Made by a program: the position numbers and the translations under genes. The notes below the pieces were generated by a model. That model saw only the letters and a program-made list of their open reading frames with translations. It made no database searches and was not told the origin of the DNA. Below are positions 3,689 to 62,305 of a stretch of DNA of 64,000 nt, one piece after another. Position 1 is the first letter of the stretch; each line of letters begins with the position of its first letter. Origin of the DNA: Octopus vulgaris (Eukaryota); the NCBI GenBank assembly GCA_951406725.2, contig OX597815.1, forward strand, positions 203,174,001 through 203,238,000, given 5' to 3'.

Positions 3689-4134
3689 TATTTGTTTTCT
3701 AGTTACAATGTCCTAACTAATACATATACTAATTTTCTATAATTTTTTATTTATTTATTTATTTATTTGCATCTACCCGTATAATGATCATAATAGCTTG
3801 TCCTTTGCGTTTAAATTTAACTGACCAATTATAACGAGAGCTGGACTTTGGTCAGCCCCATTAGGGGCAATAGGTTGTCGGTCTTTACAACATATCAGTG
3901 AGTAAATAATTGTAATTAACTGATGGGCACTTTATTATGATAAACTATTAAATAGTACTATTATCATAATCTCAAGAACTATTATGATTACTTCAAAACG
4001 ATATGGCACTATCACTCCCTCTATTTCAAGACCTATTGGCGTATCCCGTAATGGTGATTTTTTTTATTTTACTTTTTTATTACTTATACACCCTGTTACC
4101 CCCATAGAAAAATTAACCCACCTATTAATATGTT

Positions 4135-17638: not shown

Positions 17639-18035
17639 TTGTTAGAATTTTGCATAGCTCCTAGAGTCTGGAAATGTGTCGGTACAAGTTGGCAGATAAT
17701 TAGTGAGTGAAGGAATTCCTTCCGGCCTTAAAGATTTTAGGTGTAGGTTTCTGATTGTCTCTAGTCGAGGCTAGTCAGTGTTATTATTATTATTTTTTGG
17801 GGTTGTCTAACGCAAAGAAACGGTCAATGTCCTGATGAAATGCTTATTCTTGTTTATGTGTTTCCGTTGATTTTGCCTGATAAGGGCATCTCGTTTGTGT
17901 CGTAACATGGCTATAGTATTTAAAATTGTAACTGTGACAAGAAGTGTAGTATGACAGTTACTGTCACTGTCAAATGCCCTATTTACTCTGTATAGAGTTT
18001 TACATTTAGATTTAGTGTTTATGGTATATACAAAT

Positions 18036-18237
18036 TACGGAGATGTACTTGCATAGCAAGTGATTTGATCTAAGATCGTGTGCTGGAACGAAAACAATTG
18101 CAGCGTGGAAGGTGTTTGTAAGCCATTTAAGAAACATACAAAAGCCGTTCGATTCACTTCAACATTTAAGTTTAATTTGTCAAAATATTTTCGTCGCTAT
18201 AAGATCGCGACCTGTTCACTGACAAAAATTCGTGCTG
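18036..18237 (-). mobile_element. 202-bp retroposed element with 14-bp TSD carrying an HHR
   Basis: TSD tggtatatacaaat at 18022-18035 and 18238-18251. Confidence 0.8.
18176..18226 (-). ncRNA. Candidate minimal hammerhead ribozyme, G3-C8 core
   Basis: On -: tttgtca-GTGAACA-g-gtcgc gatcttata gcgac-GAAA-atat-TT-tgacaaa: stem I 7 bp, stem II 5 bp, palindromic stem III. Confidence 0.7.
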
Positions 18238-19116
18238 TGGTATATACAAATATATATAAGTATTCTGCTTTTCTATAATTTTATTATTATTTTAGTTCTT
18301 AGTTCGGGGTTGTTTGAGATTAAGCCATATTGTAGTTTCTTGAGGTTTGGCTTTATTTATTGGGTTTATCATTACCGCCATTTTTATGATATCAGCTTTT
18401 ATGATGTAAGCTATTTGTTCCTTATATTTACAATAGTTTCTATGTTTGTTTTTATACTGTTTCTAAGTCTTAAAATATTAATTATATATGAACGCGGAGC
18501 TTGTTCCATTGAACAATTTCAAGTTTGTAAAAGAATGTTTTTATTGATGATAATTGGTAGCTGGTCCCAGAAAGGTTAGAGGATTACTTATCAAGTGGCT
18601 GTTATAGCTAGATATGTGGAAAAGAAGGGGATGGAAGAAGAGTTCTTGTAGGTGGTTCGCGATTTATGTGCATCTTACTTGTTTCATTGGGTCTTAAGTG
18701 TAAAAGGAGTAAAGTTGTGATACTTTTATGTTCGCTCTTTTGTTATTCGTACTGTTTGAAAACCGGCATTCTCAAATAATGCAGGTTTTTAATGCTTAGT
18801 TTGTTGCAACTGAGGTGTGAGATCATCTGGGTGATTGATAAGGTAGGTGGTGATAAACACACATACACACGCATATATGTATATATAAATACAATCAGGT
18901 AAATATACTTTTATATAAATATATGTGTGTGTGTATATATATGTATGTATATATGTGTGTATGTATGTGTGTGTATTTATATAAAAATTAGAAATTAGCA
19001 CTAAGCTTAAGAACGCACAAGGCATCAACAAGTTTGGAAACGGGAGTCGAAATCCCAAATCCATCCCCGAAATCACCTAAATATGTCAGAGGCAACAGTA
19101 GGCGAGCGAACGGTTA

Positions 19117-33120: not shown

Positions 33121-34337
33121 AAAGGGGTTGGACAAAATAATGGTAACACCTTAAAATTTCAAACAAATTTATTTTAATATGGGGTAGGACCGCCTTAGGC
33201 AGTAATTACGGTATGGACTCGGAGAAGCTTTGAATTGTTTCCAAAGTAATTTTTGTTCATTCTTCAGCTAAAACATTCTCCAGTTCTTGTAGTGATGGTG
33301 GTGGAGGATATCGACCCCTTACTTGTTTTTCTAAAATGCATCATAAATGTTCAATAATATTGTGATATGGGGACTGTGGTGGTCAGATAAGATGTTCAGT
33401 TTCACTAGAATGTTCCTCGTGTCATTCAGTAACAACTTTAGCTGTGTGAATTGGTGCATTATCATCCTGAAAGATTGCGTTTCCCTCCGGAAACAGTTCT
33501 GCAACCATAGGATGAATTTTATCAGATAAAATGCTTAAATACTCTTGAGTATTCATTCTGCTATTAAGGGAAACCATTGGGTCGGCGGATTTCCATGATA
33601 TAGCTCCCCAGATCATCACAGATCCTCCTCCGTGCTTAACAGTTGGAAGAAAGCAGTCTGGGTCAAATGCTTCTTTTGGCTGTCTCCACACGTACACTCG
33701 GCCGGTGGTCGGAAATAAGGTAAAGGATGACTCGATCGAGAAAATAACATCTGTCACTGCTCTAGGGATCAATTTTATTTTTACTCCACTCTAAACGCTT
33801 CGCAAAGTTTGTTTTTGAAAGTAGTGGTTTTCTGATTGCAGCCCTCCCGTGGAATCCAGCTATGTGCAGCTGCCGTTTTTGTGAAAACTCGGTTCTCGAG
33901 GTGGTCATTAAGCTCTGCAGTAATTTTGGGAGCTGTACTTTGTGATCCTTTCTAACAATTCGCGTAAGAGCTTCGGTTTTCTTCCGGAGTTTTGTTTCGA
34001 CGAGGAAGTTTTTCCCTCTTTCTCAAAGACTGTCATTACTTTCGAGACATTACTTTCTTGCTACACCAAACATTTCGACTGTTTTCGTTACGCTAGCGCC
34101 TGCCATACGAGCACCAACAATTTGATCTATTGAAAGTCCAATAGATCTGGCATTTTAATGAATTTTAATGACCTTTTTTTGATGATATCTGAAAAGAAAC
34201 AGCAATTTTAGCAAAACCTATTAAGCAACACAAATAATAAATCACAAAACATAAAAATAAACAACCCTTTGACGGTTTTATAGATATTTCAAAAGTATGT
34301 TTCTATGGTGCTAGGCGGTGTCATTATTTTGTCCAAC

Positions 34338-60781: not shown

Positions 60782-62305
60782 ATAAATAGATAGTGGTCCT
60801 GAAGAGGCGGGTCAAGTATTCCACGTCGACGCCCAGTGTCTCCCCAAGAACGTCGTGGCACCTCTCCACTAATCCTCTATAAAACGTCTTCATTGAATTG
60901 AAGTCGCACAGAGTTGCTCGAGAGCAAGATGACACTTGCAGTGCTATTCGCCCAGCCTCGGTCTCTGTTTTATCCTCGATAGCAGTTCGCTTAAAAAGAC
61001 GAAGTGCGGTAAAGCGCGTCTCACAAACGCCGGCCACACCTGTTCACCGTCGTCTATGAAATGCTGGAGATGTTGCAGTCTCAGCGCATGTCAGCGCATC
61101 ATTAACCGCGGTGTGCGCAGCCCTCAATTTAGCGGATGCTGGCAGCAAATGGATCGCCTGACCATCGTTTCCCTTCCATCGGAAGAGTATGCACTCAAGT
61201 TTTGTGATGGTATGGTCGAGACAAAACACGACGGTCGGATGGTAGTAGATGACGGATGCAATGTACGCATTTGCCACTTCAACCCGACCTTTTAGAGATA
61301 GCTTCTCTGCCTATTGCTGGGTGAGAGTGGCCACTCTGCTCGTTATTTCGTCCCAGTTCATCTCTATTTGGAGGTCCGGACCGAACCAGACCCCGAGCAA
61401 TTTAACCAGTCCATCACAATGGAGACGCTGTTGGATGGCATGCACTTGCTTCTGCAGGTGCCGAGCCACAAGCCCACTGACTTCGTATTCTTTTAGTGCC
61501 TCACCGACCAGATCGATACGTCTGTGGCTCGACACTATGACGGTAACGTCTTCCGCGTATGTAGCCACGCTCCTTCCGCATCCCAGTTCTCGTGGGATGC
61601 CCCTCAGCCTCAGCGTCGTCCGCTTCCGCATTAGTGGTTGTAGAGTCGATACATACAGAAGTGACGATAGGGAGCGCCATTGACGGACCGAACGCGTGAT
61701 GTCGCATGATCTGGATAGATGATCATTTACGCGAACTACCGAGTGGATGCCGCTATATAAAGCAGCGTTCCAACCGCGGAAGACGGGGCCGAAACCAGCC
61801 GCCCTAAAGACAGCCTCTAAGCAATGATGGCCGTCCCTATCGAAGGCTTATGATTGATCCAAATTGATCAGCGCCCCACTCATGCCAGGTTCCTTAACTA
61901 TTCTGTCTATGATGTAGCGCATCAGTTGGAGGTTGTCATGGATACTCCTGCCCGGCACGGTGCATGTTTGCGCCTTGTCGACCAGTTTCTCGACGACAAG
62001 CGCCAACCTCTCCGCTAGCACCTTAGCCGGGAAAGACGCGTTGAGCTTCCAGTAACCGGGACCCTGCCTATGATTCCTATCTAAGTCGAGGGTACAAGTC
62101 ACAAATTTGTGATCTATGTAGCTGGCTATGTAAAATTGTTGAAAACCTACACTATCCCTATCTACTGTCCTGAATATGATCTGGACGACCCGATGCGGTT
62201 GGTCCATGTCCACATTGGTACATTCGTGTAGTTCAGTCGCTACCTGTCAGACAGTTGCAGATGTCTGAGCAGGTCTATGAGGCACTTGCATCCCCTCCTA
62301 TTCTG
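60782..62305 (-). mobile_element. L1/Tx1-clade LINE ORF2 remnant with internal deletions
   Basis: GPGYWKLNAS, QTCTVPGRSIHDN, INLDQS*AFDR, YAEDVT (YADD) and KLLGVWFG. Confidence 0.9.

What the first reader, a model, noticed from the sequence alone, without database searches (positions are those of the whole stretch)
18022..18251. 202-bp TSD-flanked mini-retroelement with a G3-C8 swapped hammerhead core
Seen: a clean 14-bp TSD, and on - a perfect 7-bp stem I, 5-bp stem II, core GUGAACA, GAAA, palindrome AAUAUU and a UUU site. The fold starts ~11 nt from the element's 5' end. There is no tRNA head, ORF or TIR. Known: core positions 3 and 8 form a tertiary Watson-Crick pair, so C3G plus G8C is compensatory. 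Inference: a double compensatory change suggests selection for function, so this may be a ribozyme-headed, retrozyme-like non-autonomous element.
Basis: partly seen in the sequence, partly recalled or inferred. Interest (0 to 1): 0.78.

Follow-up and report, generated by a model that had tools for sequence, protein, structure and literature searches.

The report
Penelope retroelement end with swapped hammerhead
This 202-base insert is the short end piece of an octopus Penelope-like jumping gene, present in thousands of copies, and it carries a hammerhead ribozyme motif whose core C3-G8 pair is naturally flipped to G3-C8, which likely keeps weak self-cleavage but has not been tested.

Summary
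The 14-bp TSD, the stems, the G3/C8 core and the predicted cut site check out. The element is the solo pseudo-LTR of an autonomous Penelope-like element (PLE, RT plus C-terminal GIY-YIG). It holds the 5'UTR with a minimal type I hammerhead and the first 30 codons of the ORF. It lies about 1 kb behind the endonuclease in 29 of 30 loci and runs straight into the ORF in tandem copies. The genome holds 7,728 exact core matches; G3-C8 is family-wide. Related PLEs carry C3-G8 or U3-A8, so the pair covaries. Copies end at two sites inside the ORF, often as head-to-head pairs within one TSD, and none starts at the cut site. This fits published internal priming on uncleaved RNA. The one new point is a natural G3-C8 core, which I did not find in the papers I could read; cleavage is untested.

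The parts
18238..18251 (.). Target-site duplication, copy at the element's 5' side (14 bp)
   Evidence: D12, 100% identical
18022..18035 (.). Target-site duplication, copy at the element's 3' side; begins ATT on the minus strand, the motif the anole PLE endonuclease prefers, and also matches the ORF continuation for 3 nt
18036..18237 (-). Solo pseudo-LTR of a Penelope-like element (family positions +6 to about +207, counting from the A of AGATG)
18176..18226 (-). Minimal type I hammerhead: stem I 18226-18220 with 18182-18176, stem II 18211-18207 with 18197-18193, GAAA 18192-18189
18212..18219 (-). Core G3 U4 G5 A6 A7 C8 A9 plus the extra G between positions 9 and 10.1
   Evidence: extra base is a PLE hallmark in PMC4209133
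18184..18189 (-). Palindromic stem III segment AAUAUU, predicted to pair between two copies
   Evidence: palindrome true; the 6-bp duplex alone is only -0.2 kcal/mol
18182..18183 (-). Predicted cleavage site after U17; untested
   Evidence: standard hammerhead numbering applied
18037..18126 (-). First 30 codons of the PLE RT-endonuclease ORF, with one private in-frame stop in this copy
18036..18092 (-). PLE 'tail': the stretch of about 57 nt between the two 3' end clusters (+144 to +151 and +201 to +210)

Best explanation
This is the solo pseudo-LTR (5'UTR with a minimal hammerhead plus the first 30 codons) of an autonomous Penelope-like retrotransposon, likely inserted when the element's RT/GIY-YIG protein primed reverse transcription inside the ORF of an uncleaved RNA and ran about 200 nt to the RNA's likely capped 5' end. 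Shown: linkage to the ORF, tandem structure, two 3' end clusters, head-to-head pairs inside one TSD, family-wide G3-C8, and Watson-Crick covariation of positions 3 and 8 among relatives. Inferred: transcription starts at AGATG; the protein nicks AT-rich DNA on both strands 11-14 nt apart; one strand primes near +207 and often the other near +147, giving inverted pairs. Also inferred: the swapped hammerhead is a slow, dimer- or protein-assisted ribozyme kept by selection but not needed for the insertion step.
For: 29 of 30 endonuclease loci carry the element about 1 kb downstream on the same strand at 90-95% identity. In L195 and L193 the element's last 91 nt continue in frame into the ORF, and L195 has the repeat at both ends. 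ORF of at least 1025 aa with GIY-YIG over the Pfam cut-off. Of 55 tail-selected loci (60 fetched, 5 co-duplicated copies dropped), all main arms end at +197 to +210; 34 have an opposite-strand arm, and 29 of these end at +142 to +151. 23 of 55 have a complex TSD against 40 of 2970 mismatched controls, and 18 of 32 inverted units sit inside one complex TSD. 0 of 60 start at +57 to +61, the cut site. 16 of 28 copies that start at AGATG have a G before it, where long copies have C or T (p = 3e-4 against 25%). PMC11167929 shows two RT start sites inside the ORF defining the tail, cleavage and extension of both strands, ATT preference, an uncleaved template, and partial rescue by C3G/G8C. 3:8 pairs in relatives: C-G in the sister family (34 of 35), L211 and L233; U-A in L208, L209 and the Neptune-type family. 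Subfamily-diagnostic changes: 0 of 42 core and stem sites against 8-10 of 72 other UTR sites (p = 0.008-0.02).
Against: No cleavage assay and no raw RNA reads, so the start site, cap and cleavage are indirect. The window's own subfamily (loop II GGTCTTATA, 268 exact matches) is absent from 33 endonuclease-linked repeats, and its long copies examined reach at most about 680 nt into the 3'UTR, none to the ORF (8 newly fetched plus 4 earlier loci), so its master may be ORF-less. Many of the extra 5' Gs sit at junctions where microhomology could supply them. The sister family has A9C and a non-palindromic stem III, and distant L267 shows an A:G mismatch, so core constraint in this clade is loose. 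No hammerhead was found behind 7 of 12 metagenome relatives (several contigs end early). The constraint test rests on few sites that I classified by eye, and an internal promoter could overlap the same bases.
Confidence: 0.85

Rival explanations
1. The short copies are PLE-derived but form a self-propagating non-autonomous family (SINE-like, internal promoter) that borrows the PLE protein, rather than being by-products of full-length RNA.
For: Only 3 of 60 tail-selected copies extend more than a few bases upstream of AGATG; 547 exact upstream-motif matches against 7,728 core matches. The window's subfamily was not found linked to an ORF. Penelope has an internal promoter in its pseudo-LTR (PMC2377424).
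Against: The same subfamily has long copies with up to about 680 nt of 3'UTR, so its master was longer than 207 nt. Priming on the first of two tail sites in a full-length RNA gives this product with no extra family. This rival is compatible with the PLE identity.
Confidence: 0.3
2. The hammerhead is vestigial: G3-C8 was fixed in one ancestral master and has been copied since; the apparent constraint comes from an overlapping promoter or protein-binding site.
For: All G3-C8 copies descend from one lineage, so thousands of copies are one event. PLE minimal hammerheads cleave poorly, cleavage is dispensable for insertion in vitro, C3G/G8C rescues only partly, and a G3-U17 wobble appears in the minimum-energy fold. 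Relatives tolerate A9C.
Against: Three different Watson-Crick pairs at 3:8 in related PLEs; a double change that restores pairing is unlikely by drift alone; both strands of both stems lack subfamily changes while loop II has four plus an indel.
Confidence: 0.3
3. The sharp 5' end is a 3' splice site (CTAAC branch point, pyrimidine tract, CAG) of a retained PLE intron, not a transcription start.
For: The upstream sequence reads like an acceptor; in D. virilis the intron ends at helix I of the hammerhead.
Against: Short copies keep the AG that splicing would remove, share no common exon sequence beyond one G, and the youngest ORF-linked copies read TTAG or TCAG alike. No GAG-GT donor in the 3'UTR of L195.
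Confidence: 0.12
4. One reading: a retrozyme-like element that replicates through ribozyme-cut monomers and circular RNA.
For: Hammerhead, TSD, small size, one tandem array (L007); PLEs are proposed to mobilise non-LTR retrozymes.
Against: Contains coding sequence of, and is part of, an autonomous PLE; ends are not at the cut site; the L007 units are separated by (TA)n tracts of differing length; the 202 nt is not highly self-paired.
Confidence: 0.04

Closest known systems
Minimal type I hammerheads in PLE pseudo-LTRs (Cervera and de la Pena 2014, PMC4209133; read parts 1-2 of 4 and parts 1-2 of supplement 2)
   Same: Extra base between 9 and 10.1, G10.1-C11.1, palindromic 15.2-16.2, U-rich flank, mostly dispersed single motifs, opposite-strand pairs, U17 common.
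   Different: Core pair is G3-C8; the paper's text and the representatives in its alignment show C3-G8, U3-A8 and one U3-G8, no G3-C8. Stem I is longer (7 bp).
Poseidon PLE of Anolis, PAc (Frangieh et al. 2024, PMC11167929; read parts 1-2 of 4, not the supplement)
   Same: Two RT start sites inside the ORF bounding a tail, AT-rich targets with ATT, both strands extended, uncleaved template.
   Different: Here the tail is about 57 nt (30-40 there), the starts lie near ORF +33 and +92, the hammerhead is wholly in the 5'UTR, and the engineered C3G/G8C rescue pair is the natural state.
Nematis-type C-terminal GIY-YIG PLEs (Craig et al. 2021, PMC8557442; passages and supplement part 54)
   Same: Short CX3CxxC linker followed by C-K-x-K-G-x-VY, CCHH endonuclease, partial tandems, inverted 5' copies, (TA)n targets (24 of 55 right flanks).
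   Different: The RT has about 70 extra residues between motifs 3 and 4 (132 against 63 aa), where that paper says canonical PLEs lack an insertion. Clade assignment was by motif comparison only.
Metazoan non-LTR retrozymes (PMC7761336, passages)
   Same: Small, type I hammerhead, TSD.
   Different: Retrozymes are non-coding tandem monomers processed to circles; this is a piece of an autonomous PLE with ends inside its ORF.

Membership tests
Penelope-like element (EN+) | Single ORF with RT and C-terminal GIY-YIG endonuclease | tested here: met
   ORF of at least 1025 aa with YVDD and PF01541 over cut-off; RVT_1 itself did not score
Penelope-like element (EN+) | Pseudo-LTRs from partial tandem arrangement | tested here: met
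   L195 repeat at 3725 and 7986 flanking the ORF; L193 likewise
Penelope-like element (EN+) | Inverted 5' copies and an optional tail at one end | tested here: met
   34 of 55 loci with an opposite arm, 29 ending +142 to +151
Penelope-like element (EN+) | Hammerhead motif in the pseudo-LTR | tested here: met
Nematis clade | Short CX2-5CxxC linker plus CCHH endonuclease | tested here: met
   one search compared by eye with the alignment
Nematis clade | RT phylogeny with named Nematis elements | not tested
   The quick tree held no named references; the RT insertion is atypical
PLE minimal type I hammerhead | Extra nucleotide 9/10.1, G10.1-C11.1, palindromic stem III | tested here: met
PLE minimal type I hammerhead | Literal CUGAnGA core | tested here: not met
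   GUGAACA in 55 of 57 (G3) and 55 of 58 (C8) arms; only 7 C3-G8 matches with this stem III genome-wide
PLE minimal type I hammerhead | Watson-Crick pair between 3 and 8 | tested here: met
   G-C here; C-G and U-A in relatives
PLE minimal type I hammerhead | Self-cleavage as dimer or with protein | not testable with these tools
   needs an in vitro assay
Non-LTR retrozyme | Non-coding, not part of an autonomous element | tested here: not met
   first 30 codons of the PLE ORF
Non-LTR retrozyme | Abundant circular monomer RNA | not testable with these tools
   only contigs were available
tRNA-derived SINE | tRNA-like head | tested here: not met
   ARAGORN found 0 genes; no Rfam tRNA hit

The most novel reading that the evidence does not exclude
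This family is the first natural G3-C8 hammerhead that really cleaves, fixed in thousands of copies across several octopus species, in a PLE lineage that has cycled through C-G, U-A and G-C at the core pair; and its head-to-head insertions inside one TSD are a genomic record of twin internal priming from two ORF sites running to a capped start.
Probability: 0.45. Interest if true: 0.6.

Novelty: new variant of a known kind. Interest (0 to 1): 0.42.

Why it matters
Hammerhead searches use CUGAnGA descriptors and Rfam misses this motif, so G3-C8 families may be overlooked. A natural version of the textbook C3G/G8C rescue mutant gives a ready test of whether PLE hammerheads are under selection to cleave, which is an open question. 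The insertion anatomy gives in vivo support, with counts and controls, for the recently proposed internal, two-strand priming of PLEs. The element class itself is known.

Tried and rejected
Rfam: no hammerhead hit. MITE reading: only a 5-nt AGATG/CATCT match, and the ends are explained by the ORF. The abundant 781-aa Neptune-type PLE as partner: no similarity to the element, different U3-A8 hammerhead. The idea that U17 is a co-adaptation to G3: U17 is common in ordinary PLE hammerheads, so it is not evidence. Free dimer folding gave a non-hammerhead structure and is uninformative. Expression: no RNA holder listed; only contigs could be laid, so no starts, ends or cleavage could be read. That call showed the G3-C8 core in loose-end consensus of runs from four coded organisms and no listed core variant, but 34 rows were not shown. 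Viral contigs held no relatives. The careful tree did not finish; only the quick tree was seen. Earlier findings of this scan: none. Searches for a natural G3-C8 hammerhead in print: searches found only engineered mutants and U3-A8. Not held, so not read: Lunse 2017, Przybilski and Hammann 2007, Arkhipova 2017; one supplement file of PMC4209133 was not searchable and figures are not held, so a prior report may exist. For PMC3088659, PMC3884650, PMC6765202, PMC8495972, PMC2377424 and PMC7761336 I saw passages only (plus a term search of PMC3088659's supplements).

Full report
Observation. The 14-bp duplication is exact. On the minus strand the head reads stem I (7 bp), GUGAACA, one extra G, stem II (5 bp), GAAA, AUAU, UU, stem I'. 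It folds better than shuffles (z = -2.49), and a relaxed descriptor finds it once in the window and never in 100 shuffled windows. Rfam misses it. The predicted cut between 18183 and 18182 is correctly placed.

Family. A DNA search gave 1160 candidates; the 40 scored were 97-100% identical and nearly all full length. An 18-mer across the core has 7,728 exact matches with 0 in the control; a 21-mer from the 3' end has 6,748. Only 7 matches have C3-G8 with this stem III. In copies picked by the tail, independent of the core, G3 is present in 55 of 57 arms and C8 in 55 of 58. A protein that NCBI labels Octopus vulgaris matches the genome at 100% over 177 aa, so the host is that species or a very close one.

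What it is part of. Some copies share an upstream motif (547 matches), and several of these lie behind a GIY-YIG reading frame. Searching with that frame, 29 of 30 loci carry the element about 1 kb downstream on the same strand. [quoted passage not shown] In L195 the repeat flanks the ORF on both sides, and its last 91 nt are the first 30 codons of the ORF; L193 shows the same. A sister family of 1312 aa has the same layout. So the window holds a solo pseudo-LTR of a Penelope-like element. The endonuclease linker resembles the Nematis type; this was not tested by a tree with named references.

How it inserts. I fetched the first 60 of 100 listed tail matches on contig C1 and dropped 5 co-duplicated copies for most counts. 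Main arms end at +197 to +210; 34 of 55 have an opposite-strand arm, 29 ending at +142 to +151; 27 of 55 reach +1 to +4. 23 of 55 have a complex TSD of 7-14 bp (one of 19 bp is mostly TA repeat) against 1.3% in mismatched controls; 16 more have low-complexity repeats and 16 none; 18 of 32 inverted units lie inside a single complex TSD. None of 60 starts at the cut site. This matches the in vitro account for the anole PLE: two RT start sites within the ORF that define the tail, nicking at ATT, extension of both strands, and an uncleaved template. I infer that each nicked strand can prime at one of the two sites and run to the RNA 5' end. An extra G before AGATG in 16 of 28 copies suggests a capped start, but junction microhomology may explain part of it, and the upstream bases also look like a splice acceptor.

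The hammerhead. The extra base after A9, G10.1-C11.1 and the palindromic stem III are the published hallmarks of PLE minimal hammerheads, for which U3-A8 is the reported covariant. C3G/G8C partly rescues activity when engineered, including in a PLE hammerhead. Among relatives the pair is C-G in the sister family (34 of 35), L211 and L233, U-A in L208, L209 and the Neptune-type family, and mismatched in distant L267; 7 of 12 metagenome relatives showed no motif. Within the family, subfamily-diagnostic changes fall in loop II and the rest of the UTR (8-10 of 72 sites) and not in the core or stems (0 of 42; p = 0.008-0.02). This favours constraint, but the G3-C8 state is a single evolutionary event, two relatives carry A9C, and a promoter could overlap. 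I put about 60% on measurable cleavage.

Against my reading. The window's subfamily (268 exact matches) was not seen next to an ORF: 0 of 33 endonuclease-linked repeats and none of the long copies, which reach at most about 680 nt upstream. A non-autonomous master is therefore possible. RNA evidence could not be obtained.

Verdict. A known kind of element, a PLE pseudo-LTR with a minimal hammerhead, carrying a natural G3-C8 core that I did not find in print in six searches, with three key papers unavailable. New variant of a known kind; interest 0.42.

Noticed in passing
L175:2971-6045 (-), L198:2263-6198 (+), P0002-P0004, P0058: This PLE clade has about 70 extra residues between RT motifs 3 and 4 (132-134 aa against 63 in the Neptune-type family), at the insertion-in-fingers position that Craig 2021 says canonical C-terminal EN+ PLEs lack.
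   Followed up: partly
L198:6720-6770: The young sister PLE (1312-aa ORF, copies about 99% identical) has a hammerhead with A9C and a non-palindromic stem III; metagenome relative L208 has U3-A8 plus A9C.
   Followed up: partly
L098:1-4660: An abundant Neptune-type PLE with a separate upstream ORF, a 781-aa RT-endonuclease ORF and a U3-A8 hammerhead about 100 nt from its 3' end, inserted in (TA)n.
   Followed up: partly
L308, L343, L344, L347, L348, L350: The same inverted insertion with the same flanks at six places on contig C1, so it is being copied inside a larger repeat.
   Followed up: no
L007:1500-2650: Five head-to-tail copies separated by (TA)n tracts of differing length.
   Followed up: partly
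L192:1740-1970: ORF-internal sequence joined directly to AGATG, consistent with a template jump at the RNA 5' end.
   Followed up: no
L227, L234, L238, L244, L254, L261, L262, L265: Distant RT-bearing metagenome contigs (22-30% identity) with canonical C3-G8 hammerheads downstream of the ORF.
   Followed up: no
window 33425-33790 (-) and 61249-62246: Decayed reading frames that look like a Tc1/mariner transposase and a LINE reverse transcriptase (names from my recall of the motifs).
   Followed up: no
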